A stretch of 64,000 nucleotides of DNA, taken from Gammaproteobacteria bacterium (GTDB lineage Bacteria; Pseudomonadota; Gammaproteobacteria; SZUA-140). Position 1 is the first letter of the stretch. Every line of letters starts with the position of its first letter. The notes below the pieces were generated by a model. It saw only the letters and a program-made list of their open reading frames with translations. It was not told the origin of the DNA and searched no databases. The stretch covers positions 3,926 to 67,925 of the forward strand of contig WGNS01000004.1 in assembly GCA_016124415.1 (NCBI GenBank), written 5' to 3'. Below are positions 32,978 through 59,776 of the stretch, in pieces. The translations under genes and the position numbers were made by a program.

Positions 32978-32981
32978 TGCC

Positions 32982-42441: not shown

Positions 42442-42494
42442 GCGGTCTCGATCGCATCGGAGTTGCACACACAAACCCCAAAAGGAATACCGAG

Positions 42495-43115
42495 ATGACC
42501 AAGAAGATATCGCGCGGGATACTGTTTTTAACGGTTTTGTTGGCCCCGATATTGACGCTGACGGCGTGCAGCAGCGTCAAGGTGTCCAGGGTGGACACGA
42601 ACCAGGAAATCGCGCTGACGGACCGTTGGAACGACAAGGACTCCGAACTGGTCGCCAACACGATGATCGAAGACATGCTGACCTTCCCCTGGCTGGGGCG
42701 TTTCCGGCAGGACTTTCCGGACCGCAGACCGACCATCACGATCCAGCAGATCCAGAACAAATCGCATGAGATGATCCCGGTCGACACCTTCGTCAACGAC
42801 CTCAAGCGCGCGATCATCCGCAGCAACAAGGCCGACTTCATCGTCAGCGGCGAGGAGCGCTCCCGCGTGCGCGAGGAGCTCAAGGAGCAGGATACCTTCG
42901 CCAGCCCCGAGACCCGTATGCAGATGGGCCAGGAGCAAGGCGCCAACTTCGCGCTGTCCGGCAGCATCAACTCCATCGTCGACCAGCTCGACGGCGAACG
43001 CGTGACCTTCTACCAAGTCGATCTCAAGCTCATCAATCTGCAAACCACGCGCGAGGTCTGGAACGGCCAGAAGAAGATCAAGAAGCTCATGGAACGCAGC
43101 CGCTTCGGGCTTTGA
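42495..43115 (+). CDS. LpoB/FlgO-like (COG3417) lipoprotein
   Basis: 206 aa. Lipobox LTLTACSS. The pattern TIQQIQNKSHEMI...LKRAII...FALSGSINSIVD...YQVDLKLINLQTTREVW resembles the LpoB/YcfM fold family. Confidence 0.5.
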   Translation: MTKKISRGILFLTVLLAPILTLTACSSVKVSRVDTNQEIALTDRWNDKDSELVANTMIEDMLTFPWLGRFRQDFPDRRPTITIQQIQNKSHEMIPVDTFVNDLKRAIIRSNKADFIVSGEERSRVREELKEQDTFASPETRMQMGQEQGANFALSGSINSIVDQLDGERVTFYQVDLKLINLQTTREVWNGQKKIKKLMERSRFGL

Positions 43116-44182
43116 TGATGTTCGCCACGAGGTCTCTAACGGTCCCGGCGACCGCGCTCCTGATCGCGGCCCTGCTCGGTGGTTGCGCCGGCGGACAGCG
43201 CGTATCGTCTCGGGATACGCTGCCTGACTGGGTCTCCAACCCGCCGAGCGCCGGCGGGCACCGTTTCGGCGTCGGCTCGGCCGAGCTCGGCGTCGACGAG
43301 TCGGCGGCCATGAAGCTGGCGCGCGACTCCGCCACGGCCGACATCGCCAAGCAGCTCCAGGTATCGATATCGTCGACGGAATCCATTCACAAGGAACTCC
43401 TCGACATCAACGGCGACCAACGTTTTTCGCAGAACGTGGAACAGGCGGTGATCAGCCGCGTCCCCGAGTTCCGCTTTTCCTTTTTGACGCTCAAGGATAG
43501 CTATAAGGACGTCCCGCATGCACGCCTCTATGTGCTGCTCGACCTCGACGTCGACAAGGAGGCACAGGCGATCCGCCGCCGTATTTCGGAACTCGATGAC
43601 GAGATCGAAAGCGCCGGCAAGGACCTCGGTACCGATCAGGACGTGCGCATCGACGACCTGCGCCGGATCTCGGCCGTACTGATCCGGATCCGCGAGCGCG
43701 ACGCGTTGCAGGAGCGCCTGCGCCTGTTCCGTCCCGGGTCACCGACGGTCGCGACCATGACCGATCTGGACGACCTCGAGCGCCGCCTGCTGGCCCGCAT
43801 CGCCTCGGTGCGCATCGAGATCCGGCCGGCGAACGGCGGCGGCACGGACTCCCTGGGCACGATTATCGCCGTCGAGCTCACCAAGCAGGGCCTGACCGTA
43901 GTCGAAAACCGGGCCGATCTCAGAATCGTCTACGATTTCGACCTGGGGGTGATTCGCAAGGGAGGGATCTACTTCGGGCAGATCCACGGCCAGACCCGCC
44001 TTGAAGACCGCGACGGATCGACGATCCGTTCCTTTGATATCGAGACCAAGGGCGTCTCGGTCCAGGAGGATCAGGCCCGCAGCCGCGCACTCAGCAGTCT
44101 GGGCGGCAAACTCGGCAGGATGATCATCGACACGTTGTTCGCCAGGAACGGCAAGGACAGCGCGTCAAAAAGCCCCCTCTAG
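43115..44182 (+). CDS. LPP20-family lipoprotein
   Basis: The track start is TTG 43112. I prefer ATG 43115, which overlaps the upstream TGA by 1 nt. Lipobox ALLGGCAG. LPP20-type N-terminal domain: PDWVSNPPS...GVGSAELGVDESAAMKLARDSATADIAKQLQVSISS. Confidence 0.6.
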   Translation: MMFATRSLTVPATALLIAALLGGCAGGQRVSSRDTLPDWVSNPPSAGGHRFGVGSAELGVDESAAMKLARDSATADIAKQLQVSISSTESIHKELLDINGDQRFSQNVEQAVISRVPEFRFSFLTLKDSYKDVPHARLYVLLDLDVDKEAQAIRRRISELDDEIESAGKDLGTDQDVRIDDLRRISAVLIRIRERDALQERLRLFRPGSPTVATMTDLDDLERRLLARIASVRIEIRPANGGGTDSLGTIIAVELTKQGLTVVENRADLRIVYDFDLGVIRKGGIYFGQIHGQTRLEDRDGSTIRSFDIETKGVSVQEDQARSRALSSLGGKLGRMIIDTLFARNGKDSASKSPL

Positions 44183-46045
44183 GCGTTTCCACATGCCGAG
44201 GTAGGCAGCCTCGATGGCTCGAGCCATGCCCGCGGCATCGCAGAGTTCCGACTTCCGGACGCGCTCCCGAAGTGCCGCCCGCAGCGCCCGCCGCCGTTCG
44301 TCGTCCCCGGCAAGTCCGACCGCCAGATTCACGTAATCCTCCCGGGATTCCGCAATGCAGTCGGCAAGGCCTATGGCGCGAAGCATGCTGACGCCCTGGC
44401 GCTCGATCATGCGCGCCCCCGCCATCGTCACGACGGGCACACCCATCCAAAGCGCGTCGGCGGTCGTTGCGCCGCCCGTGCGCGGGAAAGGGTCGAGCGC
44501 GATGTCCATGTCGCCGTATTCCTTCAAATAATCCGGCGTCCGGGGCCGCAGAATCAGCCGCTCCGGATCGACGCCCAGCGCCGTGAAACGCTGCACGACG
44601 GCATGTCGACCGGCCTCGTGGTTGAAAGGCGCGGCCTTGAGCAGTAAGCGCGAACCGGGGACCCGGTTGAGGATCTCGGCCCAGGTCGCGACGACCTCGT
44701 CGCCGAGCTTGCTGAGGTCGTTGAAACAGCCGAACGTGACCGCTCCGCCTGAGGTCCTCTCGGCGACCTCGGGCGCGTCGGCGACGGGCTCGTAGGTGAT
44801 CCAGCAACGCGGCAGGCGCCAAATCTCCTCGGTAGTGCTTTCGACGCTGTCCTCGGGGACCAACGCCTCGTCGACCAGCCAGTAGTCCATCGCGGAAAGA
44901 CCCGTGGTGGCACAGTAACCGAGATACGTCACCTGCACCGGTGCCGGACGATAGGCGAAGACGCCTAGGCGGTTGCCGCGCGTATGTCCGGCGAGATCGA
45001 CGAGGATATCGATCCGGTCCTCGTAGATCTGCCGAGCGACCGCCTCGTCGCCCTGTCCTATCGTCTTCCGCCAGGCTTGGGCGTACGACCTGAGACGCCG
45101 GTTGACCTCATCATTGGAACGGCTTTCGTCATAGCAATAGACCTCAAAGCGGCTCCGATCATGCGCGCGCAACAGTCCCTCGACGAAAGTGCCGACCGGA
45201 TGGCGGCGCAGGTCCGGTGAGACGTAGCCGATCCTGAGCCGCCGGTCCCCGTCCAAGCGGCCGGAAAAATCGAATCGCCCGGCGCGCTCGTCGGGTGCAA
45301 AGCGTTGGGCCCACGCGCGGTGATGCTCGAGCAATTCCCCGGCTGGGCACAGGACGTGGTAAGCCTCGACAAACAACAAATTGCTGAAGGCCTCGCGGTA
45401 ATCCGGCCGCAGTTGCAACGCCTTGAGATTGCATGCCCTGGCCGTCGCGACCTGGCCGCTGTCCTTCATGACGTTGGCGAGCCCCACCCAGGTCTCGGCA
45501 TCGTTGGGATGGCGTTGTAGGATCGTTTGATAACAGGCCGCCGCCTCTTCGAAACGGAACGCCCGATGCAGCGCGATCGCGAGATTGAAGATCGTCGTGT
45601 CGTCGTCGGGATGGATCGCCAACACCGAGCGATAGCAGGCGATGGCCTCGTCGAAACGCTTGGTCCGGCGCAATAGGCCGCCCAGACGACTGCCGGCCTC
45701 CGGCCAGCCCGAGCGTAACGCAAGCGCCTGGCGATACGCATTCAAGGCGTCGTCGAGCCGATTCTGTCCCTCGTAGGCCATGCCCAGCAACAGATGCGCG
45801 TCGGCATTGCCGGGCTGTATGCCGAGCAGACGGACCAGGGGCGGTACGGCTCCGGCGAGATCGCCGGCGCGGCTGCAGGCCGCGCCCAGGAGATGCAATG
45901 CGACCGGCTGGTTTGGTGCCTTCTTCAGTACCTCGCGGCAGACCGTGATCGCCCGCTCGGCCGCGCCCGACTGCAACAAACGGCCGGCGTCGGCGACAAG
46001 CCGATCGACCTCCCCATTGGTCGAGCCGGGGCCCGGACTGCTCAT
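44165..46045 (-). CDS. TPR-repeat + GT41 (OGT/SPINDLY-like) glycosyltransferase, paralogue 1
   Basis: 626 aa with no signal peptide. The N-terminal ~230 aa is TPR. The C-terminal part reads RLRIGYVSPDLRRHPVG, DILVDLAGHTRGNRLGVFAYRPAPVQVTYLGYCATTG, TFGCFNDLSK, SRLLLKA and DIALDPFPRTGGATTADALWMGVPVVT. Its ATG overlaps the upstream stop (ATGA at 46042-46045). Confidence 0.8.
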   Translation of the reverse strand: MSSPGPGSTNGEVDRLVADAGRLLQSGAAERAITVCREVLKKAPNQPVALHLLGAACSRAGDLAGAVPPLVRLLGIQPGNADAHLLLGMAYEGQNRLDDALNAYRQALALRSGWPEAGSRLGGLLRRTKRFDEAIACYRSVLAIHPDDDTTIFNLAIALHRAFRFEEAAACYQTILQRHPNDAETWVGLANVMKDSGQVATARACNLKALQLRPDYREAFSNLLFVEAYHVLCPAGELLEHHRAWAQRFAPDERAGRFDFSGRLDGDRRLRIGYVSPDLRRHPVGTFVEGLLRAHDRSRFEVYCYDESRSNDEVNRRLRSYAQAWRKTIGQGDEAVARQIYEDRIDILVDLAGHTRGNRLGVFAYRPAPVQVTYLGYCATTGLSAMDYWLVDEALVPEDSVESTTEEIWRLPRCWITYEPVADAPEVAERTSGGAVTFGCFNDLSKLGDEVVATWAEILNRVPGSRLLLKAAPFNHEAGRHAVVQRFTALGVDPERLILRPRTPDYLKEYGDMDIALDPFPRTGGATTADALWMGVPVVTMAGARMIERQGVSMLRAIGLADCIAESREDYVNLAVGLAGDDERRRALRAALRERVRKSELCDAAGMARAIEAAYLGMWKRLEGAF

Positions 46046-47940
46046 CCGAACCTCTTTGCGACCATGGCCTCATAGGCGGTCTCCAGCCGCTCGGCGAGAT
46101 CCCGGCCGCGACACAGCGCGGAATCCCGGACCCGGTCGCGGAGCGTGCGCCGCAGTTCGGCGCGCCCAGTGGCATCCCCGGCGGCCCGTTCGACGCGGGC
46201 GACATAGGCCGCCCGGTCGGCGCAAATCCAGTCTTCGAGGCCCACGGCCGACAACATGGTCGCGCTCAGGCGTTCTATGTAGCGCGCACCGGCCAAAGTC
46301 ACGACAGGGACGCCCATCCAGAGCGCCTCCACCGTCGTCGTGCCGCCCGTCCGCGGGATCGTATCGAGGGCGATGTCGATTTCGCCATAAAGTTCGAGAT
46401 GGTCCCGTACGCTGTCCGTGCGACCCATGAAGCGTAAACGGTCGGCCGCGACCCCTTCTCGCTCGAAGGCCAGGGCAAGGTCGCGACGCACGTCCGGGTC
46501 CGAAAGCTGCCGCGCCTTCAGAAACAGGCTTGCCTCGGGCAAGGCCCGAAGGACGGCCGCCCAAAGTGCGACCGTCGCCGGCGAGACCTTGCTGAGATCG
46601 TTGAAACTGCCGAGTACCAGTCCCTTGTTCCCGGACCGATCCGCGACGTCCGGCGCGTCTCCGGGCGGGGTATATCCGAGACAGCACCCCGGCACGCGCC
46701 AGATCGCCTCCGAGGTGCGTTCGACGGTATCGGACGGGGTGAGTACGCCATCCGACAACCAATAGTCCATGGTCGGCAACCCCGTGGTCGTGAAGTAACC
46801 GAGATAGGTGATTTGCACGGGCGCGGGTCGGAAGCAGAAGATGCCGAGGCGGTTACCGGCCGTATGTCCGGCAAGATCGACCAGCACGTCGATGCCGTCG
46901 GCGTGAATCTGCCGGGCCACGGCCTCGTCGGACTGCCCGGCGGTCATGCGCCAAGCATCGGACAAATTGCGCAGGCGCTGGCTGACGGCATCGGGGCGCG
47001 GCAGTTCTGCGTAGCAGAAGATCTCGAAACGGGACCGGTCGTGATTGGCGAGAATGGGCTCGAAGAAATAGCTGACGGAATGCTGCCTGAGATCCGGCGA
47101 GACGTAACCGATGCGCAAACGCCGTCCGGACTCAGGCGCGCGATGTTCACCCGCCGCGCCATCCCGTTGCGCGCACCCGAAATGGCGGCTCCATTCGAGA
47201 TGCGCCTCGAGCATGGCTTCCGGGTCGAGCAACACATTGTAGCTCTGCAGAAACAGGATGTTGCTGTAGACCTGCATGAGATTGGGGTTCAGGCTCAGCG
47301 CCTTTCGGTAGTGCTCAATGGCGTGCCCGAAATCGCCCTTGGCCTCGTAGACCCGGGCGAGATTGTTTTGGATCGCGGCGACCTGGGGCGCGAGCTCTAC
47401 GGCCCGCTCGTAGACCTCTATCGCTTCCGCATATCGCCCCTGGGATTCGTAAAGATTGCCGAGGTTGTACCAGGTATTGGCCTGGGCGGGATCGAGCGCC
47501 AGCGCATGCCGAAACCGCCGTTCCGCTTCATCCTTTCGACCGACGTTGTGCAGCGCGGCCGCGAAGTTGTTCTGCAAAGAGGCGTCATCCGGCGTGATCG
47601 CGTCGGCCCGGCCGAAAGCCGCGATGGCATCATCGAAGCGTCCGGCGTCGGCCAGGGCCGTCGCCAGGCGTCCGAGGTAATGGGCGCTTTCCGGGGCTTT
47701 GGAAACCGCCTTTTGCATGAGTTGGATGGCCGGCTGAATGTGCCCGGTCTTGTGCGCGACGCAACCGAGCAGGAAATTGGCCTCGGCGTGCTCCGGATCC
47801 ACGGCGAGGGCCTGCCGGTAGCAGGCCTCGGCGGTCTTGAGATCGCCGGCCTTATGGGCCGCAATGCCCTGCTGCATGGCCTGATTCAAGGCGGGATGAT
47901 TCATGCCGCCCATCCCCGACGCGCGCCCAGGGAACGCCAT
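46042..47940 (-). CDS. TPR-repeat + GT41 (OGT/SPINDLY-like) glycosyltransferase, paralogue 2
   Basis: 632 aa. The conserved blocks match paralogue 1: RLRIGYVSPDLRQHSVS, DVLVDLAGHTAGNRLGIFCFRPAPVQITYLGYFTTTG, DIALDTIPRTGGTTTVEALWMGVPVVT. Confidence 0.8.
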   Translation of the reverse strand: MAFPGRASGMGGMNHPALNQAMQQGIAAHKAGDLKTAEACYRQALAVDPEHAEANFLLGCVAHKTGHIQPAIQLMQKAVSKAPESAHYLGRLATALADAGRFDDAIAAFGRADAITPDDASLQNNFAAALHNVGRKDEAERRFRHALALDPAQANTWYNLGNLYESQGRYAEAIEVYERAVELAPQVAAIQNNLARVYEAKGDFGHAIEHYRKALSLNPNLMQVYSNILFLQSYNVLLDPEAMLEAHLEWSRHFGCAQRDGAAGEHRAPESGRRLRIGYVSPDLRQHSVSYFFEPILANHDRSRFEIFCYAELPRPDAVSQRLRNLSDAWRMTAGQSDEAVARQIHADGIDVLVDLAGHTAGNRLGIFCFRPAPVQITYLGYFTTTGLPTMDYWLSDGVLTPSDTVERTSEAIWRVPGCCLGYTPPGDAPDVADRSGNKGLVLGSFNDLSKVSPATVALWAAVLRALPEASLFLKARQLSDPDVRRDLALAFEREGVAADRLRFMGRTDSVRDHLELYGEIDIALDTIPRTGGTTTVEALWMGVPVVTLAGARYIERLSATMLSAVGLEDWICADRAAYVARVERAAGDATGRAELRRTLRDRVRDSALCRGRDLAERLETAYEAMVAKRFG

Positions 47941-48010
47941 CGTCTCCGCTGTCTGTCCAACCTACCCCCGTCGATACCGATCGTTGTTCCGGGATTCTAC
48001 CGCCGCCATC

Positions 48011-49741
48011 TCACTCGCCGCGAAGAAACGCCTGATACATGTCATTGAACCCTGCCTCGAGCATGCGCGCAACCCGCCGCCCGTCGCAAAAACCGGCGGC
48101 CTTCAGGCGCGCGCGCATGCCCGTGCGAAGTTCGCGCAGCGCCGTTCGGTCGCGGGCGAAGGCCGCGACCCGGTCGACATACGCGTTCTCGTCAGCCGTA
48201 ATACAATCGGTAAGCCCCATGCAATGCAACATGGAAGCGCTCAAACGCTCGACGTAGCGCTTGCCAGCCAACGTGACCACCGGAACGCCCATCCACAACG
48301 CCTCGGCCGTCGTGGTGCCGCCGGTCCTCGGGATCGTATCCAAGGCGACGTCGACGCCGCCGTACAGGGCGAGATGCGTGCGCGCGTCCGGCGTCCGGGT
48401 CAGCAGTTGCAAGCGGTTTGCCGTTATTCCCGAGCTTGCGAATGATGCGATGAAGTCCTCGCGCACCCCTTGGTCCGCGAACTGTTTGGCCTTGAGGACC
48501 AGACGCGCGTCAGGGACGGCCTGCATGACGCGCGCCCACAACGCCAGGGCTTCGTCCGAGACCTTGCTGAGATCGTTGAAACAACCCAGCGTGAAAGGCT
48601 CGCTCGGCGACCTGTCTGCGACCTCGGGGGCATCCGCCGCCGGCGCGTAACAAAAACTGCACCCGGGCAGCCGCCAGATCCGTTCGCTGCTCGGCTCGGC
48701 GGTATCGTCGGGAGACAGGACCGCATCCGAGAGCCAGTAGTCCATGGCGGAAAGACCGGTCGTCGTGAAATAGCCCAGATAGGTCGCCTGAACGGGCGCC
48801 GGACGATGGACGAAGACACCCAGGCGACCGTCGCGCGTATGACCGGCAAGATCGACGAGCACATCGATACCGTCTTCATGGATCCGACGGGCAACCTCGG
48901 CGTCGCTCAGATTCACGGTCTCCCGCCAATGATCGCTCAAACCCCGTAAACGCTCGGTGACGGCATCCGGCGCGCGCACCTCGGCGTAGCAATAGACTTC
49001 GACACGCTCGCGGTCGTGCGCGGCCAGGATGGGCTCCATGAAATAGGCCACGGAATGCTGCCGGAAATCCGGAGACACGTAGCCGATGCGCAACCGCTTA
49101 GGTAAGGCTCGCGAACGCGAATGGTGATACGGCGCGACCCCGTGAACGGTTTTGTACCGCGCCTCCCAGTCCCGATGCAGTGCCAGCGATTCCTCGGGCG
49201 TAGTGAGGACATGATAGCTCTGCAGCGCGAGATAGGCGCTCATGATCTGTAGCGCCGCGTCCTCGCGCTGCGGGACCAGGTGGATCAGGCGGTTGTCCGG
49301 ATCGCTGGGACAAGCCAGGCCCCGCCGCAGACATTCCGCTGCATCTTTCCACCGCCGGCTGCGGCCATAGAGATTGCCTAGATTCGTATAGGCTTCCGCG
49401 AAATCAGGCCGGATCTCGAGCGCCCGGCGATAGGCTGCCACGGCCTCGCCGGAGCGGCTCAGGATGGCGGCGACCTTGCCGAGGTTATAGAGCGCGTAAG
49501 GATGGTCCGGTTGCGCCGCGAGCGCCTCCCTGAAACAAGCCTCCGCGTCCGGCAAGCGTCCCAAGCGGCCGTTGATCATGCCGGCGAGACAGATCAAATC
49601 TCCATCAAGCGGGTTTTCGGCCAGCGCCGTTGCGCACCCGTTCAGGGCGCCGGCGAAATCGCCGCGATCGACGTGTGCGATGATCGCGGCGAGGCGGGTC
49701 GGCGTCCCGCTCACGGCAACGGTTCGTCCAGGGCCCGGCAC
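48011..49741 (-). CDS. TPR-repeat + GT41 (OGT/SPINDLY-like) glycosyltransferase, paralogue 3
   Basis: 576 aa with the same conserved blocks: RLRIGYVSPDFRQHSVA, DVLVDLAGHTRDGRLGVFVHRPAPVQATYLGYFTTTG, DVALDTIPRTGGTTTAEALWMGVPVVT. An alternative in-frame GTG at 49714 would form a GTGA overlap with the upstream stop. Confidence 0.8.
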   Translation of the reverse strand: MPGPGRTVAVSGTPTRLAAIIAHVDRGDFAGALNGCATALAENPLDGDLICLAGMINGRLGRLPDAEACFREALAAQPDHPYALYNLGKVAAILSRSGEAVAAYRRALEIRPDFAEAYTNLGNLYGRSRRWKDAAECLRRGLACPSDPDNRLIHLVPQREDAALQIMSAYLALQSYHVLTTPEESLALHRDWEARYKTVHGVAPYHHSRSRALPKRLRIGYVSPDFRQHSVAYFMEPILAAHDRERVEVYCYAEVRAPDAVTERLRGLSDHWRETVNLSDAEVARRIHEDGIDVLVDLAGHTRDGRLGVFVHRPAPVQATYLGYFTTTGLSAMDYWLSDAVLSPDDTAEPSSERIWRLPGCSFCYAPAADAPEVADRSPSEPFTLGCFNDLSKVSDEALALWARVMQAVPDARLVLKAKQFADQGVREDFIASFASSGITANRLQLLTRTPDARTHLALYGGVDVALDTIPRTGGTTTAEALWMGVPVVTLAGKRYVERLSASMLHCMGLTDCITADENAYVDRVAAFARDRTALRELRTGMRARLKAAGFCDGRRVARMLEAGFNDMYQAFLRGE

Positions 49742-51282: not shown

Positions 51283-51397
51283 CGTGCCTATCTTATCCCA
51301 TGAGTACGTCCAAACACGTGCCGGTCGCCTTTATACCTTGCCGTCATTGCGACCGCACCTCCGATCCCTTTGTACCGGTTCGCCGAAGACCGTCGGA

Positions 51398-54300: not shown

Positions 54301-57300
54301 GGTCCTTGACGACCGCCATCGCCTTGTCGGGATCCTCCTGGAGCGATATCTCCCGCGAATAAGCGGTGACCGCGTCCATGGCCTTGCTGTCCTGGGCGTA
54401 GGTCACTGCAAGTTGATGATAGACCGAAGGGTCGTCCGGCATCAGACGGGCCGCCTCCTGCAGCGACGTGATGGCCTGCTCGTATTCACCGCTAAACGCG
54501 TAGAACAAGCCCAACTGAAGGAACGCGCGGCCGTTGTCCGGATTCTCGCGCGCGAACTTCTTCAACACCATGGCGGCTTCGTCATACTTTTTGGCCTGCG
54601 CCAGGGCGCCGACGCGGGCGCGATAGAGATCCGCGAGTTCCTTGACGACCTGTTTGGTGTACTTGCCCTTCCGGTTGGTGTTGAGATAATCCTCCAGCGT
54701 CGAAATCGCCTGATCGTTACGTTTGGTCTGCAGGTAAAGGCGGGACAGGCGCCACAAAGCCTCGCCGTTCGCGGGTTCGACCGCGAGGATCGAATGCAGC
54801 GTCTTCTCGAGGTTGGCCAGGTCGTTGGTTTTCTGGTAGATCTCGGCGATGCGCTCCAGGATCATCGGATTGTCCGGAACGATTTTCAAAAGCTGGTCGT
54901 AAGCATCCAAGGCCTTGGGCCAATCCTGTTTGGTCTGCAACTCCACGGCCTTGTCGAATCCGATCAGCGTCAAGGCGGCCAGTGCCTCTGGTCCGGAAGG
55001 TTGGATGGCCAGAATGGCCTTGACGTGAGTAAGCGTCTGCTCATCCTTGCCCTTTTCGTGATAGAGCTGCGCCATGCGCAGACGGATGCGAACGTTATTG
55101 GGCTCCAGGGCCACCAATCGCTCGAATACCCGATCGGCTTCCGCGGACCGTCCCAGCGCCAGGAGGGCCTTGCCTTCGAGCCCCAGCAGCTGGACGTCCT
55201 TGGGCATCCGTTTCAACAGGCCGTCGTAGATTTTGAGCGCCTCGGCGATGTGGCCTTCGCTGTCCAGGACCCGGGCACGGGTCACCAACATGCGCTCCCG
55301 GGCCTTGTCGTGGGTCGGACCGGAGGGAAGCAACGTCGTGACTCGGTGGTAGGCCGCCTCCGCCTTCTTCATATCGCCGGAGGACTCGTAGACCTCCGCA
55401 AGGTTCATGAGCAGCATGCCGTTTCCGGCCGACAGTTCGGCGCTCTGTTCGATCGCCTCGATACCCTTTGCACGATCGCCCATCTTGAGTTCCGCCTGTC
55501 CCAACCAGTAAAAGGCCTGGGCATTGCGGCCGTGCTTCAGCAAGGCCTCGGAAATCTCCTTGACGTGCCCGTAGTAAAGACGCAGGTACAAGTCCTTGAT
55601 GAGGTCCAATGCGGACGCCTCCAACTGAGGCGTCAACGACGCGGTCGACGTCAAATTGGACACCATGGCCGCACTCTGGGCGCCGAATATCTTGCCCAAA
55701 CTATCGATCGCCCGCTTCGAATACGGATCGGTGGGGCCTTTCCTGGCCACGATCTCCAGCTCCTTGATGGCGGCATCCACGCGCCCTTCGTCGGCCAGGA
55801 GCGTGCCCAGGGCAAACCGCGCCTCGGAAAGATTGCCGTCCATCTCGACGACGCGGCTGTACTCCTTCTTGGCGAGGTCGATCCGCTTTGTTCCGACGAA
55901 AATCCGGGCCTGACGCAGCAGGACCTCCGGCGCATTCGGCACCAGCCGAACCAATGCCGTCACCTGATCGCCGGCTTCCTGCCATTGCGACTGCTGGATC
56001 AGCCGGTCGACGTCGTAGACTCCGAGTCCGGCCAGCGCCTGTTTTCTCAGGCTCGGGATCTTGGCCGCGTTCAGGACCCGGGCGTAGTTTTCCCGGGCAT
56101 GTTCCTCGTCGCCCTGGTCGTGATAGAGCTCCGCCAACGCGAGGGCCACGGCCGCCGAAGAGGAATCCTCGCGCAGGATGTCCTCATAGACCGTAGCGGC
56201 GAGCGTTTCGCTCTTGGCCTCGCGATAGGCATCCGCGAGCACGAGTTGGATATCGGTATTGCCGGGATGCTCCACGAGCGCCTGCTTGAGCAGTACGACG
56301 GCATCGGTAGGCCGCTTGAGTCCGATCAGGGCGCGCCCCATCATCCGATACGGCGTAATCAGGTCGGGGCGTCCGGCGATGATCCGTTCCGCGACAGTCC
56401 GGACCGATTGATACAGCTCGTCGTCCAGCATCCGCTGCAAAAGCGGGAACAGTTGTCCCTGTCCCTCGTCCCCAAGCTTATCGATGCCTTGGTCTTCAAG
56501 GATCTTGTTCGCCTCGCGCTCCTGAATCTCGGCGAGGATGGTCTTGGCCTGGTCCTTCCACTTCTTGGCGACCATCATGCTGGTGACGAGGCGCGCCTCG
56601 TTGATCGCCGCCTCGTCGTTCTCCGCCTTTTGATAGGCACGCGCAAGCTGAATATGATAATCGGCCTTGTCCGGCGCCTCGTGGATTGCGGTCCGATACG
56701 CGGCGATGGCCGCATCGTAGTTTTCGAGCGCCATATAGACGCGTGCGATCTCCTCGTTCGCGACCGGCTCGCTGGGCACGATCTTGAGCACCTTGCCGTA
56801 TTCGATCAGGGCTTCCTGATATTTTTTCTCCTTGAAGTAATTACGCCCCGCCTCCATGCCCATGCGGTCCAGGGCTTTCGTACGAATCTCATCGGGCGCG
56901 CCCTGCTCTAGCAGTATCCTTGCCTCGTCGTCCGCCTTGTCTCGCTGTCCGAGTTTTTCGTAAACCGTCACGAGTAGGCTGCGTGAGTCGAAGTCGAAAG
57001 GCTGTTTGTCCAGCAGCTTGTTCAGGATTTCCGATGCCTTGTCGAGCTTGCCCGCTTCGACGTACGCGTTGGCCAAGGCCGGCACGAGCAGGAGATTTTC
57101 CGGCGCCAAGGCCAGGCTCTTTTCGAGCGCCGCGACCTCGTTGTCGAAAGACTTTCTCGCCTTGTAGACCTGAGCCAGCCAATAGTGCCCCGGGGCCTGG
57201 TCCGGGTCGATTCTCAGCAAACCTTCGAACATGGTCTGCGCCTCGTCCAACTCGCCGTTGTCGAGATGCTTTCTTCCCTGGGTGACCATTTCCTTCTTGA

Positions 57301-59776
57301 TATCGTTCAGAAATTTCTCGCCGTTCTTCCGGTCGTTATCGCCCAGCGTCCCGGTCTTGAGGATTTCCTTGACCTGCTCCGCGGCGTCGACAAACCGGCC
57401 TTCCTTCTTAAACAGGTCGGCCAGCGCAAGATGGACCGACAGGTTCTGCGGCTGAAGCCTCAACAACTGTTTATAGAGCGGTTCCGCCTTGTCGTATTGC
57501 TTGTCGTTGTAATAGATCGAGGCCAGTTTCAGGCGCAGGATGACGTTCTGCGGCGACAAGGCGATGACTTTCTCGAGCAATGCGGTCGCCTCATCCTTGT
57601 GCCCGGAAGACAGCAATGCCTCGCTTTGAAGCGTCAACACGCGCTCCTCATTCGGATAGCGTTTGCCCAGGTCTTCGAGCGCCTTCAACGCCTCTTCGGG
57701 CTTGGATGCGATCAAAAATCTTTGCGCCTGAACCAGATGCAGACGTTTGTCCGCCTCTTCCCTGGCGATCTTGTCGGTCACGGTGTCCAGCGCCTTTTTG
57801 TAGGCGTCCTCAGCGTCGGCCCATTGACCGGCGTCCTCGTGCAGCTTACCGATGGACAGGAACAGGCGGCCGTTGTCCGGGGCAAGCGCTACGCTCTTCT
57901 CCAGATTGGCCAGGCCCTTGGCGCGGTCGCCGGAATTGATCTCCGTCTGACCGAGCCAGTAGAAGGCACGCGGGTCGGGGAATTTTTGAGACAAGGGCTT
58001 CAGGATCTGTTGCGCCGAGGCGACCATGCCGACTGCGATGAGTTTTTGGGCGAGATCGACCGCGCCGTCCACGTCCTCGGCACTGAATCCGTTCTCCTTC
58101 GAAATGGCTTCCGCGATCGTCTCGGCGCGCTTCTGATAGTACGTCTTGAGCAGGTCCGCCGCGGCCCTGGCCTCCGGCACGTCCTTGCCCAGGCGGGCCA
58201 GATTTTCCAGCTCCGGCACGGCCTTGTCGTCCTTGCCCACGACCAGTTGGGCTTCCGCCCTTCTGAGGAGGGCATCCGTGCGCCCGGGCGCCAGCTTCAG
58301 GATCTCGTCGTAAACCTTGATCGCGCGATCGTCCAATCCCAGCTTGCTGTAGATCTTCGCCCTGCGCATCATGATGTCGGGGTTGTGCGGCAGCGCCTTG
58401 TCGATCTCGAAGAAGATCTTGTTGGCCGCCTTGTAGTCGCCCTTCAGGATCAGTTCGTCACCGGCGCGCAATCCCAATCCGTCGAGCGCGAGCTGCCGAA
58501 GCTGCGGGTCATCCGTGAGCTTGTATGCCTCGACGAAGGCCTCCCGCATCTGTGCCTCATCGCCCCGGATGCGGTAGACCTCTGCGAGGCGCAGTCTCAA
58601 TCCGGCATCTTCGGGCAGGAGTTTGCGCAGACGGGCGTATACCTGATCCGCCTCGGCGGCGTGATTCAACCGTTCCAGGGCGCGCGCATAGAGTTCGAGC
58701 AGTCCCGGATCGTCGGGGGTCTTCTTCAAAAGATCCTGATATCGCTGAAGCGCGGACGCGACGTCGCCCTTCAAGACCTCCTTGCGGGCGACGATCAGTT
58801 GCAGGCGGCGCTCCGTCTCGACGATCGTCACGGCCGGCGTGCCTCTCGTTTCCAGGACTTTGCGGTACTCGACTTCCGCATTCTCGAAACGTCCCAAAGC
58901 TTCATAGGCCTTGGCGAGTTCGAGGCGCAGGATCGGATTCTCCGGCGCCAGCGAAACGCTTCGCTCGATGGCGCTGATACCCTTGCCTTCCTGCTTCTTG
59001 GAGAGGTAGATGCGGCCCAACCAATAGTAAGGTTGAGGATTGTCCTGCGTCTGCTCGAGCACACGTTCGAAGAGGCGCTGCGCCTCATCGAGCATATTGG
59101 CGCGGACCAACTTCTGGCCGAGCACGACGGCCGGGTCGACAAGCTTCGGGTCCTTCGGCAGACCGTCGTACAAGGCCGTGGATTTCTGATGATAGACGTC
59201 GCGCAGGCGGGAAGTGATTTCGGCCGAGATCAGCGAACTCCCGGCCAGCCTGCCGGCCTCCTCGAGTTCCGGGATGGCTGCGTCCAGGCTACCCTGATCA
59301 GCCGCGAGGTTGCCCAGTGCCAGATGCGGATCGAGATAGTTCGGGTTCAACGCGATCGAGCGCTGATAGTCGGACTTGGCCTGATCGAATTCCTGCCTGA
59401 CCTGGTGGATCCGTCCCCGCCAATAGACCGCGACCGCGTCGTTAGACCACTTATCGTCGGAGATCAGATCCCAAGCGCCCTGATAGTTGCCGGTGCCGAA
59501 GAAGTGACTGACTCTATCAAAGACGGATCCGGCGCGCTGAGTTGTAACCGGCGCGGCGGCATCACCCGACGTCTTGACTGCATCGGCCGCGTGCGCCGCA
59601 CAGCCGAAGGTCGCGAGCAATACGAATACGGAAGTGGACCGCCGGCCGGTCAACGGGGCAAACGTCCCACGGGGTTTGATAGGTCCTGTATCGCTCAAAG
59701 AAACGCCTTCACAGATAGATGGATCAGAGGCACGGGTGTTCCCAACGACCCATGGCCGCCGAAGCCGACAAATCAT
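51398..59776 (-). CDS. Giant (up to 2792 aa) exported TPR-repeat protein with one internal and one C-terminal outer-membrane-type beta-rich block
   Basis: One uninterrupted ORF. A Sec-type signal (RRSTSVFVLLATFGCAAHA-ADA) begins about 40 codons in, so the real start may be the in-frame TTG at 59653. TPR repeats fill roughly residues 90-1940 and 2080-2600. Beta-rich S/T/N/G/Y blocks lie at about 53573-53944 and 51401-51950. The protein ends ...SLNMSMNFRF, an OMP-like terminal Phe. Confidence 0.75.
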   Translation of the reverse strand: MICRLRRPWVVGNTRASDPSICEGVSLSDTGPIKPRGTFAPLTGRRSTSVFVLLATFGCAAHAADAVKTSGDAAAPVTTQRAGSVFDRVSHFFGTGNYQGAWDLISDDKWSNDAVAVYWRGRIHQVRQEFDQAKSDYQRSIALNPNYLDPHLALGNLAADQGSLDAAIPELEEAGRLAGSSLISAEITSRLRDVYHQKSTALYDGLPKDPKLVDPAVVLGQKLVRANMLDEAQRLFERVLEQTQDNPQPYYWLGRIYLSKKQEGKGISAIERSVSLAPENPILRLELAKAYEALGRFENAEVEYRKVLETRGTPAVTIVETERRLQLIVARKEVLKGDVASALQRYQDLLKKTPDDPGLLELYARALERLNHAAEADQVYARLRKLLPEDAGLRLRLAEVYRIRGDEAQMREAFVEAYKLTDDPQLRQLALDGLGLRAGDELILKGDYKAANKIFFEIDKALPHNPDIMMRRAKIYSKLGLDDRAIKVYDEILKLAPGRTDALLRRAEAQLVVGKDDKAVPELENLARLGKDVPEARAAADLLKTYYQKRAETIAEAISKENGFSAEDVDGAVDLAQKLIAVGMVASAQQILKPLSQKFPDPRAFYWLGQTEINSGDRAKGLANLEKSVALAPDNGRLFLSIGKLHEDAGQWADAEDAYKKALDTVTDKIAREEADKRLHLVQAQRFLIASKPEEALKALEDLGKRYPNEERVLTLQSEALLSSGHKDEATALLEKVIALSPQNVILRLKLASIYYNDKQYDKAEPLYKQLLRLQPQNLSVHLALADLFKKEGRFVDAAEQVKEILKTGTLGDNDRKNGEKFLNDIKKEMVTQGRKHLDNGELDEAQTMFEGLLRIDPDQAPGHYWLAQVYKARKSFDNEVAALEKSLALAPENLLLVPALANAYVEAGKLDKASEILNKLLDKQPFDFDSRSLLVTVYEKLGQRDKADDEARILLEQGAPDEIRTKALDRMGMEAGRNYFKEKKYQEALIEYGKVLKIVPSEPVANEEIARVYMALENYDAAIAAYRTAIHEAPDKADYHIQLARAYQKAENDEAAINEARLVTSMMVAKKWKDQAKTILAEIQEREANKILEDQGIDKLGDEGQGQLFPLLQRMLDDELYQSVRTVAERIIAGRPDLITPYRMMGRALIGLKRPTDAVVLLKQALVEHPGNTDIQLVLADAYREAKSETLAATVYEDILREDSSSAAVALALAELYHDQGDEEHARENYARVLNAAKIPSLRKQALAGLGVYDVDRLIQQSQWQEAGDQVTALVRLVPNAPEVLLRQARIFVGTKRIDLAKKEYSRVVEMDGNLSEARFALGTLLADEGRVDAAIKELEIVARKGPTDPYSKRAIDSLGKIFGAQSAAMVSNLTSTASLTPQLEASALDLIKDLYLRLYYGHVKEISEALLKHGRNAQAFYWLGQAELKMGDRAKGIEAIEQSAELSAGNGMLLMNLAEVYESSGDMKKAEAAYHRVTTLLPSGPTHDKARERMLVTRARVLDSEGHIAEALKIYDGLLKRMPKDVQLLGLEGKALLALGRSAEADRVFERLVALEPNNVRIRLRMAQLYHEKGKDEQTLTHVKAILAIQPSGPEALAALTLIGFDKAVELQTKQDWPKALDAYDQLLKIVPDNPMILERIAEIYQKTNDLANLEKTLHSILAVEPANGEALWRLSRLYLQTKRNDQAISTLEDYLNTNRKGKYTKQVVKELADLYRARVGALAQAKKYDEAAMVLKKFARENPDNGRAFLQLGLFYAFSGEYEQAITSLQEAARLMPDDPSVYHQLAVTYAQDSKAMDAVTAYSREISLQEDPDKAMAVVKDLLFTMARKFYEEDQPILAIRYLERLRSLGFKDGRIQSMLGFLESQQGDYDQAIEVYREGIGISPDDLSMHFSLAGLYEQTNATAAAIAQLREILKRGKAGDRYVEAARQRKRYLEDKERRFTSNLGYTLISGKSVIQEQDVNNTGAVNTSFSSSFNYRLTTTFHPSEKTNIAIVTGLTHSSNHSTQNDSIAPNISINANVNNPKSFWGLSAGYTESYGLLLDQFGGASANATVSNGLRFNHPFSEFLSLFDFSEDPLPDYFLSEDRVAPENISLETREEDRLKDYLTNVPMTDLPAGSSVRDVRTFLLHVLADLTHGHPDTALRRLKEDPHGVGGYHLSLLLRGWLAEKLGHPADATAIYLGLLERDSSDLWAKYSLGRLYQAEKETEAVNWLDAVYRATGSADALHELGGRRLRMGYLADATRIQEKAMTKEDLVQFYVLIGKLYDLEAYADTLPLLEQRTDKDSRDFDAHLWAGRFALASGRYGAAENYLEGAVDIDKNNALAHRALGDAYLAEGKLDDADEAYAWVVEHGGDEAQRIYAIEQLPFAVKPDDLDKEDREKRKQELDSYLQAHPDDPATLIQLADMEMLLGQNEQALEHYRKAGTLRPQDKYISWRLIEAKPKEAGDEKYRASLRSLMSLSDDHWFHLRALRHLKFFTILELLADEDFDKAKDLLEQAHDVLSDDPLISLNLALAYRRLNDGAKAKGVLEAMMESHPENLTALWMLGDLNIALRSLDKGMTQLEQVVTQGGDSRVARLAKEKLQKLEEDRFAFLTGAPEESVASTKTFSTSLSMGKSFPVQSYLAQTRDASLTFSLSMPSVTWGTVTLGYTYSKKFNEEPLGTDYASHSQRVNLSYNRSVPGVPKLTGAFSISHQQTDHEYNDTNAFFALGTAAKRRILNDALSANLSYQLADNLSLSLVYSQSKTRANLPVGIVYSPSGTRIAFQSLALGAFDTRSLNMSMNFRF

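What the first reader, a model, noticed from the sequence alone, without database searches (positions are those of the whole stretch)
44165..59776. All-TPR operon: giant exported TPR/beta protein, a TPR-sulfotransferase and three TPR-GT41 glycosyltransferases, a candidate uncharacterised protein glycosylation/sulfation system
Seen: five consecutive minus-strand genes. Junctions are a 115-nt gap, an overlap (a 4-nt GTGA overlap if paralogue 3 starts at 49714), a 70-nt gap and a 4-nt ATGA overlap. Every product carries TPR repeats. Gene 1 has a Sec-type signal and an OMP-like C-terminus. Genes 2-5 have no signal peptide and should be cytoplasmic.
Established: GT41 enzymes (OGT/SPINDLY, and the HMW1C-type N-glycosyltransferases) act on proteins, not lipid-linked sugars. 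In OGT the TPR array selects substrates. HMW1C glycosylates its co-operonic HMW1 adhesin in the cytoplasm before export.
Inference: this is a dedicated module that glycosylates a protein client, and may sulfate the glycan or the protein. The obvious candidate clients are the co-encoded giant protein and the G/S/T/N-rich PEP-CTERM protein at 21162-21908. I know of no characterised system with this gene composition.
Basis: partly seen in the sequence, partly recalled or inferred. Interest (0 to 1): 0.8.

Follow-up and report, generated by a model that had tools for sequence, protein, structure and literature searches.

The report
Giant TPR outer-membrane protein with protein-modifying enzymes
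A rare but conserved gene block pairs a 2,750-residue outer-membrane-anchored repeat protein with four cytoplasmic enzymes from protein-modifying families (one tyrosine-sulfotransferase-like, three SPINDLY/OGT-like sugar transferases); the pairing appears undescribed and gives a concrete place to look for bacterial protein sulfation and O-glycosylation, but the modified target is still unknown.

Summary
Five minus-strand genes lie at 44165-59776 with the stated junctions, and all products carry TPR repeats.

G1 has a Sec signal peptide, about 1,900 aa of TPR, and a 14-stranded outer-membrane barrel (OmpG/CymA-like by model). A ~500-aa TPR insert splits the barrel at a periplasmic turn.

G2 is a TPR-fused sulfotransferase whose only solved relatives are protein-tyrosine sulfotransferases. 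The counterparts of TPST2 Arg78, Glu99 and Lys158 are invariant.

G3-G5 are TPR-fused GT41 enzymes closest to plant SPINDLY. The essential Lys and His are conserved. They fall into two subtypes that travel together in several loci. None of G2-G5 has a signal peptide.

The barrel defines a small family: 40 representatives among 1.84 billion proteins, mostly 2,350-2,900-aa giants. GT41 genes lie within 10 kb in 5 of 8 giant clades, against 4 of 80 control loci. Sulfotransferases lie near 4 of 8. One distant locus (barrel 41% identical) repeats the whole composition and adds a PKMT-type protein-lysine methyltransferase.

Best reading: a cytoplasmic modification module for an exported envelope protein, most likely the giant itself.

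The proposed PEP-CTERM client finds no support. The client, donor sugar and sulfation target remain unproven.

The parts
51398..59776 (-). G1: giant exported TPR protein with a split outer-membrane barrel. The ORF is 2792 aa; the probable true start is the TTG at 59653, giving 2751 aa.
   Evidence: ORF. TPR families at E down to 7e-137. Orthologues of 2769-2775 aa. NCBI names it only 'tetratricopeptide repeat protein', MBI1194406.1.
59588..59653 (-). G1 signal peptide, MTGRRSTSVFVLLATFGCAAHA with cleavage before ADA, starting at an in-frame TTG.
   Evidence: Sequence read directly. This is the most hydrophobic 19-mer of the protein. Homologues also begin with signal peptides.
53957..59578 (-). 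G1 N-terminal TPR solenoid, about aa 67-1940, predicted periplasmic.
   Evidence: 22 TPR_19 and 14 TPR_16 stretches. Its location follows from the signal peptide and the barrel topology (inference).
53522..53956 (-). G1 beta1, aa 1941-2085: barrel strands 1-6.
   Evidence: S/T/N-rich and without TPR. No Pfam hit. Conserved across the family at E down to 1e-79. Six long strands in the model.
51989..53521 (-). G1 insert, aa 2086-2596: a TPR-like alpha-solenoid placed in the periplasmic turn between strands 6 and 7. It begins with a disordered acidic linker, DPLPDYFLSED.
   Evidence: All-helical in the AF2 model, with a low-pLDDT linker at its start. Absent from the short family members, where beta1 abuts beta2. 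Homologues carry LysM at this position.
51401..51988 (-). G1 beta2, aa 2597-2792: barrel strands 7-14, with the motif SNLPVG...FQS..LG.F...NFRF at the C-terminus.
   Evidence: Exhaustive search gave 40 representatives, mostly giants with this domain at the extreme C-terminus. Eight long strands in the model. The barrel-only model matches the 14-stranded OmpG, CymA and FadL.
49711..51282 (-). G2: cytoplasmic TPR (about aa 1-230) fused to a TPST-like PAPS sulfotransferase (about aa 283-505).
   Evidence: Sulfotransfer_3 at E 7e-37. Seven of eight PDB hits are TPST1/2. R297, E318, K369 and S488 are invariant in the family and align with TPST2 R78, E99, K158. No signal peptide.
48011..49714 (-). 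G3: cytoplasmic short-TPR plus GT41 glycosyltransferase, subtype B. GTG start in a GTGA overlap with the G2 stop.
   Evidence: Glyco_transf_41 at E 4e-54. Junction. Gene call of 567 aa. Subtype motifs and conserved His/Lys.
46042..47940 (-). G4: cytoplasmic TPR plus GT41 glycosyltransferase, subtype B.
   Evidence: Glyco_transf_41 at E 2e-48. Motifs HS, DHL, DTIPRTGGTTTVEALW and RYIERLS.
44165..46045 (-). G5: cytoplasmic TPR plus GT41 glycosyltransferase, subtype A. ATGA overlap with G4.
   Evidence: Glyco_transf_41 at E 1e-53. Aligns end to end with SPINDLY at E 3e-111. Motifs HP, DYL, DPFPRTGGATTADALW and RMIERQG. Junction.

Best explanation
This is a conserved envelope-protein modification module.

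Shown:
- G1 is a Sec-exported protein of about 2,750 aa. It is anchored in the outer membrane by a 14-stranded C-terminal barrel.
- Its ~1,900-aa TPR solenoid, and a further ~500-aa TPR insert in a barrel turn, face the periplasm.
- G2-G5 are soluble cytoplasmic enzymes, each made of a TPR array fused to a catalytic domain from a protein-modifying family. G2 is a TPST-like PAPS sulfotransferase. G3, G4 and G5 are SPINDLY/OGT-type GT41 glycosyltransferases of two subtypes.
- All four have intact catalytic residues.

Inferred:
- PAPS and nucleotide sugars exist only in the cytoplasm, so the enzymes act there.
- They use their TPR arrays to hold an unfolded protein client, as OGT, SPY and FlmG do.
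- They add O-linked sugars, possibly in two steps or with two donors (the two subtypes), and sulfate on tyrosine or on the sugar, before the client is exported through Sec.
- The most likely client is the giant itself. This would parallel HMW1C-HMW1, TibC-TibA and PKMT-OmpB, where the modifying enzyme is encoded beside its very large outer-membrane or surface substrate.
- The modified giant then serves as a periplasmic and outer-membrane scaffold or conduit in cell-envelope or exopolymer biogenesis.
For: - Domain identities and catalytic residues.
- No signal peptide or TM segment in G2-G5, and a signal peptide in G1.
- Tight gene coupling: 4-nt overlaps and no terminators in the gaps.
- Barrel family and architecture.
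- Synteny: full block in ~80% relatives (L091). The distant giant L090 has TPR-GT41, TPR-ST, TPR-GT41 directly downstream. GT41 lies beside giants in L089, L099 and L096/97. Enrichment is 5/8 against 4/80, Fisher p = 1.6e-4.
- A third protein-modifying family, a PKMT-type lysine methyltransferase, lies beside the giant in L090.
- A SEC-C (SecA Zn-finger) motif is fused to the GT41 proteins next to the giant in L096/97, hinting at action on Sec-bound clients.
- Precedent for a TPR-guided cytoplasmic glycosyltransferase acting on a secreted protein: FlmG (PMC7591256). SPY mechanism: PMC9715652.
Against: - There is no direct evidence that any protein is modified.
- The giant has no obvious long Ser/Thr-rich or disordered tract. 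The only acidic-Tyr linker motif is conserved only in the closest relative.
- Relatives of G2 at ~51% identity sit next to GT41 genes of both subtypes with no giant on the short contigs.
- Three giant clades show no GT41 in the limited flanks available.
- Giants also associate with polysaccharide genes (Bac_transf, WecG, GT2) and with an MMPL/DUF1302/LolA-like export set. This fits an exporter role at least as well as a client role.
- Sulfotransfer_3 also includes glycan sulfotransferases. A weak NoeE hit was seen.
Confidence: 0.35

Rival explanations
1. Same enzymology, different client. The enzymes modify one or more other exported proteins in the cytoplasm, such as adhesins, matrix proteins or PEP-CTERM proteins. 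The giant is the periplasmic and outer-membrane device that receives, chaperones or translocates the modified cargo, in the manner of Slam (TPR plus a 14-strand barrel) or TpsB.
For: - All characterised TPR-plus-barrel proteins are export machines rather than substrates (established knowledge: BcsC, PgaA, PelB, Slam).
- The barrel is 14-stranded, as predicted for Slam.
- L090 encodes an Ig/cadherin/FG-GAP adhesin-like protein of at least 1,390 aa just upstream.
- ST plus GT41 pairs occur without a visible giant in L005, L007 and L008.
Against: - No candidate cargo gene lies inside the window block or in its ~80% relatives; the flanks are housekeeping genes.
- PEP-CTERM proteins are absent from all related loci, and the window's PEP-CTERM gene is separately regulated.
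- The barrel has no DUF560/Slam profile match.
Confidence: 0.25
2. A polysaccharide system. The giant is the outer-membrane exporter and periplasmic scaffold of a (sulfated) exopolysaccharide, analogous to BcsC, PgaA or PelB. The TPR-fused transferases act on sugar or lipid-linked intermediates, or regulate the polysaccharide machinery.
For: - Bac_transf priming transferases lie directly upstream of giants in L098, L099 and L100. WecG and a TPR-less sulfotransferase occur in L100, and a GT2 in L099.
- The window carries a complete XrtA/Wzy-type EPS locus 7-40 kb away, with its own Bac_transf.
- OmpG/CymA-type barrels pass oligosaccharides (established knowledge).
Against: - All characterised GT41 enzymes act on proteins (established knowledge).
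- The sulfotransferase matches only TPSTs among solved structures, including the TPST-type Arg in the 5'-PSB loop.
- No synthase, flippase or polymerase gene lies within the window block or its close relatives.
- BcsC and PgaA profiles are matched only through the TPR part and far below their cut-offs.
- The model has 14 strands, not 16-18.
Confidence: 0.2
3. No dedicated system. G2-G5 are general cytoplasmic regulatory modifiers (OGT-like signalling), and their adjacency to a giant TPR protein reflects duplication, shuffling or neighbourhood drift of abundant TPR genes.
For: - Both enzyme families are huge, with more than 7,000 hits each.
- Most TPR-sulfotransferases have no GT41 or giant nearby: 76 of 80.
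- Bacterial GT41 enzymes with many cytoplasmic targets are known, such as Yersinia HmwC (PMC11329713, listed).
Against: - The same composition recurs at very different sequence distances and in different gene orders.
- GT41 is significantly enriched next to giants.
- The genes overlap translationally.
- The same two GT41 subtypes are retained together in three independent loci.
Confidence: 0.12

Closest known systems
HMW1C/HMW1 (and TibC/TibA, Aah/AIDA-I, EtpC/EtpA): cytoplasmic glycosyltransferase encoded beside its giant exported adhesin
   Same: - A GT41-superfamily enzyme (HMW1C) is encoded in the same operon as a very large Sec-exported outer-membrane or surface protein.
- Modification takes place in the cytoplasm before export.
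- The substrate gene comes first and the transferase genes follow.
- G5 matches the NGT C-terminal lobe weakly (E 2e-13; PDB 3q3e/8p0o at E ~1e-10).
   Different: - G3-G5 are SPINDLY/OGT-type O-transferases with TPR arrays, not NGTs with an all-alpha domain. The NGT model scores 18-50 bits against a cut-off of 1000.
- There are three transferases of two subtypes, plus a sulfotransferase.
- The giant is a TPR solenoid with its own barrel. It is not a beta-helical adhesin with a separate TpsB partner.
Plant SPINDLY / metazoan and bacterial OGT (GT41); FlmG as a functional analogue
   Same: - TPR array fused to a GT-B catalytic domain.
- G5 aligns with SPY residues 259-843 at E 3e-111, without the metazoan Int-D insertion.
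- SPY H495, N661 and K665 are conserved.
- In OGT, SPY and FlmG the TPR array selects protein substrates (PMC9715652, PMC7591256).
   Different: - The sugar-facing SPY Tyr744 is Arg in all copies. SPY S496 and T748 differ in subtype A. The donor sugar therefore cannot be inferred.
- The genes sit in an operon with an exported giant and a sulfotransferase, rather than as a stand-alone regulatory enzyme.
Tyrosylprotein sulfotransferases (TPST1/2, tick TPST) and Xanthomonas RaxST/RaxX
   Same: - Sulfotransfer_3 fold.
- 5'-PSB loop PRSG(S/T)TL with Arg rather than Lys, and a 3'-PB motif.
- Catalytic Glu and Lys align with TPST2 Glu99 and Lys158.
- RaxST shows that bacteria can sulfate tyrosine on a secreted peptide in the cytoplasm (PMC4646787, listed).
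   Different: - Only about 25% identical to TPSTs (E 2e-13).
- Fused to an N-terminal TPR array. It is neither membrane-anchored nor lumenal.
- No RaxX-like precursor gene and no RaxA/B type I exporter nearby.
- No member of this very large TPR-fused family has, to my knowledge, been characterised.
TPR-plus-barrel outer-membrane proteins: BcsC, PgaA, PelB, NfrA (polysaccharide export) and Slam (lipoprotein translocation)
   Same: - Signal peptide, a long periplasmic TPR array and a C-terminal barrel ending in an aromatic residue.
- Some family members lie next to polysaccharide priming enzymes.
- 14 strands, as proposed for Slam.
   Different: - Two to three times longer than any of these proteins.
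- The barrel has no profile match to any of these families, and its best structural matches are OmpG, CymA and FadL.
- The barrel is interrupted by a 500-650-aa TPR insert, sometimes with LysM.
- No synthase gene and no lipoprotein cargo gene in the window block.
Rickettsial PKMT1/2 - OmpB
   Same: A cytoplasmic protein-modifying enzyme acts on a giant outer-membrane protein. A PKMT-architecture methyltransferase lies directly upstream of the giant in L090.
   Different: It is not present in the window. OmpB is an autotransporter, not a TPR protein.

Membership tests
GT41 (OGT/SPINDLY-type protein O-glycosyltransferases) | Catalytic domain matches Pfam Glyco_transf_41 above the gathering score | tested here: met
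   G3 184 bits, G4 166 bits, G5 183 bits, against a cut-off of 25.
GT41 (OGT/SPINDLY-type protein O-glycosyltransferases) | N-terminal TPR array contiguous with the GT-B domain | tested here: met
   TPR families in aa 1-230 of G4 and G5 and aa 1-150 of G3. G5 aligns with SPY through both the TPR and catalytic parts.
GT41 (OGT/SPINDLY-type protein O-glycosyltransferases) | Essential nucleotide-binding Lys (SPY K665 / hOGT K842) and active-site His (SPY H495 / hOGT H558) | tested here: met
   Both are invariant in G3-G5 and in six relatives. Residue roles are taken from PMC9715652.
GT41 (OGT/SPINDLY-type protein O-glycosyltransferases) | Donor-sugar determinants of SPY (Tyr744, Thr748, Ser496) | tested here: not met
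   Y744 is Arg in all copies. In subtype A, T748 is Ala or Val and S496 is Pro or Val. The donor sugar is therefore unknown. This does not argue against GT41 membership.
GT41 (OGT/SPINDLY-type protein O-glycosyltransferases) | Transfers a sugar to Ser/Thr of proteins | not testable with these tools
   Requires enzyme assays or glycoproteomics.
HMW1C-type N-glycosyltransferase (NGT) | Matches NCBIfam NF049992 at its cut-off and has an N-terminal all-alpha domain instead of TPR | tested here: not met
   G5 scores 49.7 bits and G3 17.5 bits against a cut-off of 1000, over the C-terminal lobe only. TPR is present instead.
TPST-like sulfotransferase (Pfam Sulfotransfer_3) | Profile match above the cut-off, with 5'-PSB and 3'-PB PAPS-binding motifs | tested here: met
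   128 bits against a cut-off of 27. GMPRSGSTL and R394...S402 are invariant or nearly so in 23 family members.
TPST-like sulfotransferase (Pfam Sulfotransfer_3) | TPST catalytic triad Arg78 / Glu99 / Lys158 (TPST2 numbering) | tested here: met
   G2 R297, E318 and K369 align with these residues in the HMMER alignments to 8w5z and 5wri. All three are invariant in A1. Roles are from PMC10951654.
TPST-like sulfotransferase (Pfam Sulfotransfer_3) | Sulfates tyrosine in proteins | not testable with these tools
   The acceptor cannot be read from the sequence. Sulfotransfer_3 also holds glycan sulfotransferases.
RaxST-RaxX-RaxAB system | Adjacent small precursor peptide gene and type I secretion genes | tested here: not met
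   No such genes lie in or beside the block.
BcsC / PgaA / PelB polysaccharide export porins | Family profile reached across the barrel, and an adjacent synthase gene | tested here: not met
   BcsC 109 bits against a cut-off of 858 and PgaA 124 bits against 367, both through TPR stretches only. No Pfam hit for the beta segments. No synthase gene in the block. The model has 14 strands.
Slam (surface lipoprotein assembly modulator) | DUF560 14-stranded barrel and a neighbouring surface-lipoprotein cargo gene | tested here: not met
   No DUF560 hit even at E up to 10. TPR_Slam matches only generic TPR. No cargo gene. The strand number (14) is the only shared barrel feature.
PrsT (XrtA/PEP-CTERM TPR lipoprotein, TIGR02917) | Single end-to-end match to the 899-position model; member of the PrsK/PrsR/sigma-54 regulon | tested here: not met
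   G1 reaches 471 bits only as nine partial stretches. The true PrsT is 23145-25946, with 690 bits in one stretch. There is no sigma-54 element upstream of G1.
Giant TPR / split 14-strand barrel family (undescribed) | C-terminal beta2 domain with the SNLPVG...FQS..LGDF...FRF motif, a conserved beta1, and a TPR insert between them | tested here: met
   G1 is the query that defines the set. Beta1 is conserved. Insert architecture is shown.

The most novel reading that the evidence does not exclude
The block is a dedicated multi-modification pathway for a giant outer-membrane-anchored periplasmic scaffold. It would add O-glycans with two GT41 subtypes and sulfate tyrosine with a TPST-like enzyme, and in some lineages also methylate lysine. 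If so, it would be the first TPR-guided tyrosine-sulfation system in bacteria. It would also provide an entry point to the function of the thousands of uncharacterised TPR-sulfotransferases and SPINDLY-like enzymes in Proteobacteria, and define a new class of split-barrel envelope protein.
Probability: 0.25. Interest if true: 0.8.

Novelty: new variant of a known kind. Interest (0 to 1): 0.6.

Why it matters
Protein tyrosine sulfation in bacteria is known essentially from one system, RaxST/RaxX. Bacterial SPINDLY/OGT-type enzymes are abundant but almost all lack a known substrate. Both enzyme types are encoded here in very large TPR-fused families, each with more than 7,000 database clusters, that are annotated only as 'tetratricopeptide repeat protein'.

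This locus, and its distant counterpart L090, tie members of both families to one specific and unusual exported protein. That turns a diffuse question (what do these enzymes do?) into a direct experiment: is the giant glycosylated and sulfated, and by which gene?

The giant itself is of interest too. It belongs to an undescribed family of envelope proteins whose 14-stranded barrel is interrupted by a 500-650-aa periplasmic TPR domain. The family recurs beside polysaccharide-priming genes and lipid/RND-type export genes, so it may be a missing structural component of envelope or matrix biogenesis in environmental Gammaproteobacteria.

Tried and rejected
1. A word-indexed protein search with G1 aa 1940-2792 returned nothing, not even the self-hit. 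G1 is in the collection, so TPR words had swamped the candidate list. The exhaustive search with the TPR-free beta2 domain solved this.
A narrower alignment returned only 5 loci.
3. The PDB fold search with the full C-terminal model was dominated by TPR hits and said nothing about the barrel. I therefore modelled a natural short homologue with a contiguous barrel.
4. PEP-CTERM client idea: no shared sigma-54 site and no PEP-CTERM gene at related loci. Rejected as unsupported.
5. The idea that the three downstream genes (557 aa, LpoB-like, 356 aa LPP20-like) belong to the module: no homologues at distant giant loci. Rejected; they are conserved only as local flank.
6. Search for the MMPL/DUF1302/TP_0789 set in the window: absent.
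7. G1 as PrsT, BcsC, PgaA or Slam: the profile hits come only from generic TPR stretches. Rejected.
8. General linkage of TPR-sulfotransferases with GT41: rejected, 4 of 80. The link is confined to the clade nearest G2 and to the giant loci.
9. Model coordinates are not exposed to the sandbox, so barrel closure could only be judged indirectly, through TM-scores to solved barrels.
Full report

Yes. Five consecutive minus-strand ORFs occupy 44165-59776.
- a 115-nt gap between G1 and G2;
- a GTGA start/stop overlap at G2/G3, if G3 starts at 49714;
- a 70-nt gap between G3 and G4;
- an ATGA overlap at G4/G5.

An independent gene call on a public contig carrying identical proteins also starts G3 at the overlap. 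Pfam finds TPR repeats in all five products, Sulfotransfer_3 in G2 (E 7e-37), and Glyco_transf_41 in G3, G4 and G5 (E 4e-54, 2e-48, 1e-53). No terminator-like or sigma-70-like site falls in the intergenic gaps, and the total number of such sites in the region is no higher than in shuffled sequence. A single operon is therefore plausible but not shown.

The window comes from an NCBI metagenome-assembled genome labelled 'Gammaproteobacteria bacterium'. All five proteins are annotated there only as 'tetratricopeptide repeat protein'.

**2. The giant protein (G1)**

*Start and signal peptide.* The annotated ATG at 59776 would put 41 residues in front of the signal peptide. Codon 42 is TTG and is followed by MTGRRSTSVFVLLATFGCAAHA|ADA, so 59653 is the likelier start. 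Homologues also begin with signal peptides.

*Layout.* After about 1,900 residues of TPR come two TPR-free, Ser/Thr/Asn-rich segments. These are beta1 (aa 1941-2085) and beta2 (aa 2597-2792, ending NFRF). About 500 residues of helical repeats separate them. Neither beta segment matches any Pfam family.

*Family.* An exhaustive HMMER search of 1.84 billion representative proteins with beta2 alone found only 40 relatives (21 at E <= 1e-10). Nearly all the full-length ones are giants of 2,350-2,900 aa with this domain at the extreme C-terminus. They share a motif, SNLPVG...FQS..LGDF...FRF. Beta1 is conserved in the same proteins. In the shorter members (about 900-1,800 aa) beta1 runs directly into beta2. 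The giants carry a 500-650-aa insert between them, and in several homologues the insert begins with a LysM peptidoglycan-binding module.

*Structure.* An AlphaFold2 model of G1 aa 1930-2792 (pLDDT 77.8) shows six long strands, then an alpha-solenoid, then eight long strands. A model of a natural short homologue with the contiguous module (pLDDT 86.8, pTM 0.80) has 14 strands. Its best matches are solved 14-stranded outer-membrane barrels: OmpG (TM 0.60/0.69), CymA (about 0.6) and FadL. The insert follows an even number of strands, so it leaves and re-enters the barrel on the periplasmic side. The LysM modules agree with that placement.

*Conclusion.* G1 is an outer-membrane-anchored protein that is almost entirely periplasmic. 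Its barrel belongs to an undescribed family. Its hits to PrsT, BcsC, PgaA and Slam models come from generic TPR stretches only. The genuine PrsT of this genome is at 23145-25946.

**3. The enzymes (G2-G5)**

None of the four has a signal peptide or a TM-like segment.

*G2, the sulfotransferase.* Its catalytic domain matches eight solved structures. Seven are protein-tyrosine sulfotransferases, with tick TPST best at E 2e-13. The alignment places G2 R297, E318 and K369 opposite TPST2 Arg78, Glu99 and Lys158. The literature identifies these three as catalytic (PMC10951654). They, and the PAPS-binding loops, are invariant in an alignment of 23 TPR-sulfotransferases.

*G3-G5, the glycosyltransferases.* G5 aligns end to end with plant SPINDLY, a protein O-fucosyltransferase (E 3e-111), without the metazoan OGT insertion. 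It also matches human OGT, Thermobaculum OGT and XcOGT well, and HMW1C/NGT only weakly.

In an alignment of the catalytic domains of G3-G5 with six relatives and SPINDLY:
- SPY H495 and the essential K665 are invariant (roles from PMC9715652).
- The residue facing the sugar (SPY Y744) is Arg throughout, so the donor cannot be inferred.
- The sequences fall into two subtypes. Type A (G5) has HP, DYL, DPFPRTGGATTADALW and RMIERQG. Type B (G3, G4) has HS, DHL, DTIPRTGGTTTAEALW and RYIERLS.
- Both subtypes occur together in the window, in L090 and in L007. The paralogues are therefore an old, co-retained pair rather than recent duplicates.

*Family size.* Both enzyme families are very large: more than 7,000 hits at E <= 1e-10 for the sulfotransferase and at E <= 1e-20 for GT41. 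Databases already name them 'tetratricopeptide repeat-containing sulfotransferase family protein' and 'predicted O-GlcNAc transferase (SPINDLY family)'.

**4. Are the genes conserved together?**

*Close relatives.* In relatives of G2 at about 80% identity the whole block and its housekeeping flanks are syntenic: metH, dtd and a metallophosphoesterase upstream, and LPP20-like, LpoB-like and yrdC downstream.

*Intermediate relatives.* At about 51% identity the sulfotransferase still sits beside GT41 genes of both subtypes. The context differs (glcDEF), and no giant is present on the short contigs.

*The wider sulfotransferase family.* In 80 genome loci anchored on more distant TPR-sulfotransferases (31-39% identical; Gamma- and Alphaproteobacteria, Planctomycetota, Verrucomicrobiota, Desulfobacterota), only four have a GT41 domain within 10 kb and none has the giant's barrel. 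The linkage is therefore not a property of the sulfotransferase family as a whole.

*Loci anchored on the giant:*
- L090 (barrel 41% identical): the giant is followed directly by TPR-GT41, TPR-sulfotransferase and TPR-GT41.
- L099: a TPR-GT41 directly downstream.
- L089: a divergent GT41 upstream.
- L096/97: two GT41 genes and a TPR-sulfotransferase within 10 kb.
- L100: a TPR-less sulfotransferase upstream.

GT41 is present in 5 of 8 giant clades, against 4 of 80 control loci (Fisher p = 1.6e-4). Several of the negative clades have only 1-6 kb of flank.

*Other recurring partners of the giant:*
- Bac_transf priming transferases, WecG and GT2 (L098-L100).
- A TP_0789-like/DUF1302/MMPL/~330-aa export set (L088, L093, L096, L099).
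- In L090, a methyltransferase with the full architecture of the rickettsial PKMT enzymes that methylate the outer-membrane protein OmpB, plus a large Ig/cadherin adhesin-like ORF.
- In L096/97, a SecA-type SEC-C zinc-finger motif fused to the GT41 proteins.

**5. Mechanism**

*Shown.* There is one exported, outer-membrane-anchored giant. There are four cytoplasmic TPR-fused enzymes from protein-modifying families with intact active sites. The genes are tightly coupled, and the association is significant and evolutionarily deep.

*Inferred.* PAPS and nucleotide sugars are cytoplasmic, so modification happens before export. The TPR arrays probably hold an unfolded client, as in OGT, SPY and FlmG (PMC7591256). 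The only exported protein consistently co-encoded is the giant. It is therefore the leading candidate client, by analogy with HMW1C-HMW1, TibC-TibA and PKMT-OmpB. I put this at about 0.35.

*Rivals:*
- The giant is the receiver or translocator of another modified protein (0.25).
- The block belongs to a (sulfated) polysaccharide export system (0.20).
- The adjacency has no dedicated meaning (0.12).

- It is separated from the block by housekeeping genes.
- It has its own sigma-54 -24/-12 element (22044-22058), and nothing similar lies upstream of G1.
- No PEP-CTERM gene occurs at any related giant locus.

**6. Comparison with known systems, and novelty**

Each enzyme is a member of a known family (GT41; Sulfotransfer_3, TPST-like). 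The overall logic resembles known 'transferase beside its giant exported substrate' systems. Three things are new, as far as six full-text searches on related term sets show:
- the combination of a TPST-like sulfotransferase with two GT41 subtypes, all TPR-fused;
- their conserved pairing with a giant TPR protein;
- the giant's barrel family itself, including the split-barrel architecture.

I therefore classify the finding as a new variant of a known kind. I score interest at 0.6. The architecture and the association are real and unusual, and they make an open question testable. No modification, donor or client has been demonstrated, however, and the individual enzyme families are common.

Noticed in passing
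window 558-37076: One large XrtA/PEP-CTERM exopolysaccharide locus. It holds a chain-length determinant, an export protein, flippase-like and Wzy-like genes, Bac_transf, several GTs, wecB, a PEP-CTERM protein, PrsT, XrtA-EpsI, PrsR, PrsK and WecG.
   Followed up: partly
window 11672-13183 (-), 32240-34289 (-), 34290-34811 (-): A UbiA/DPPR-synthase-like prenyltransferase, DprE2-like and DprE1-like oxidoreductases, and GtrA. This is the enzyme set that makes polyprenyl-phospho-arabinofuranose in Actinobacteria, here inside a gammaproteobacterial EPS locus.
   Followed up: no
window 22044-22058 (-): A sigma-54 type -24/-12 element, TGGCACAAGGATTGT, lies about 140 nt upstream of the PEP-CTERM gene start (ATG at 21908, preceded by AAAGGAG). 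This is as described for PEP-CTERM genes in PMC1569441. Nothing similar lies upstream of the giant gene.
   Followed up: yes
window 40768-44182 (+): Three co-oriented genes converge on G5: a 557-aa weakly TPR-like protein, an LpoB-like lipoprotein and a 356-aa LPP20-like protein. They are conserved next to the block in close relatives (L002, L004) but absent from distant giant loci.
   Followed up: yes
L096 24924-28697 and L097 18299-22072: The TPR-GT41 proteins near this distant giant carry an N-terminal SEC-C motif (the SecA C-terminal zinc finger that binds SecB and ribosomes). Several TPR-sulfotransferase relatives also list PF02810. This may be a hint that such enzymes are recruited to Sec-bound clients.
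   Followed up: no
L088 9313-13101; L093 1658-7887; L096 18856-24901; L099 19961-27205: A recurring gene set directly follows giants in four clades: a TP_0789-like (LolA-like) protein, a DUF1302 outer-membrane protein, an MMPL/RND-type transporter and an unknown protein of about 330 aa. It is absent from the window.
   Followed up: partly
L090 2-6043: Upstream of the distant giant lie an Ig/cadherin/FG-GAP adhesin-like ORF of at least 1,390 aa and a methyltransferase with MethyTransf_Reg and PKMT C-terminal domains. That is the architecture of the rickettsial OmpB lysine methyltransferases.
   Followed up: partly
window 53507-53539 (G1 aa 2080-2090): An acidic tyrosine motif, DPLPDYFLSED, resembles tyrosine-sulfation sites. 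It lies in the low-confidence linker just after beta1 and is conserved only in the closest homologue, P0121.
   Followed up: partly
P0138 / L100 4380-12230 and other giants: A LysM peptidoglycan-binding module sits at the start of the insert between beta1 and beta2 in several giant homologues, but not in the window protein.
   Followed up: no
L017, L031, L036, L038, L065, L080: TPR-sulfotransferase genes often occur in tandem arrays of two to four paralogues in unrelated genomes.
   Followed up: no
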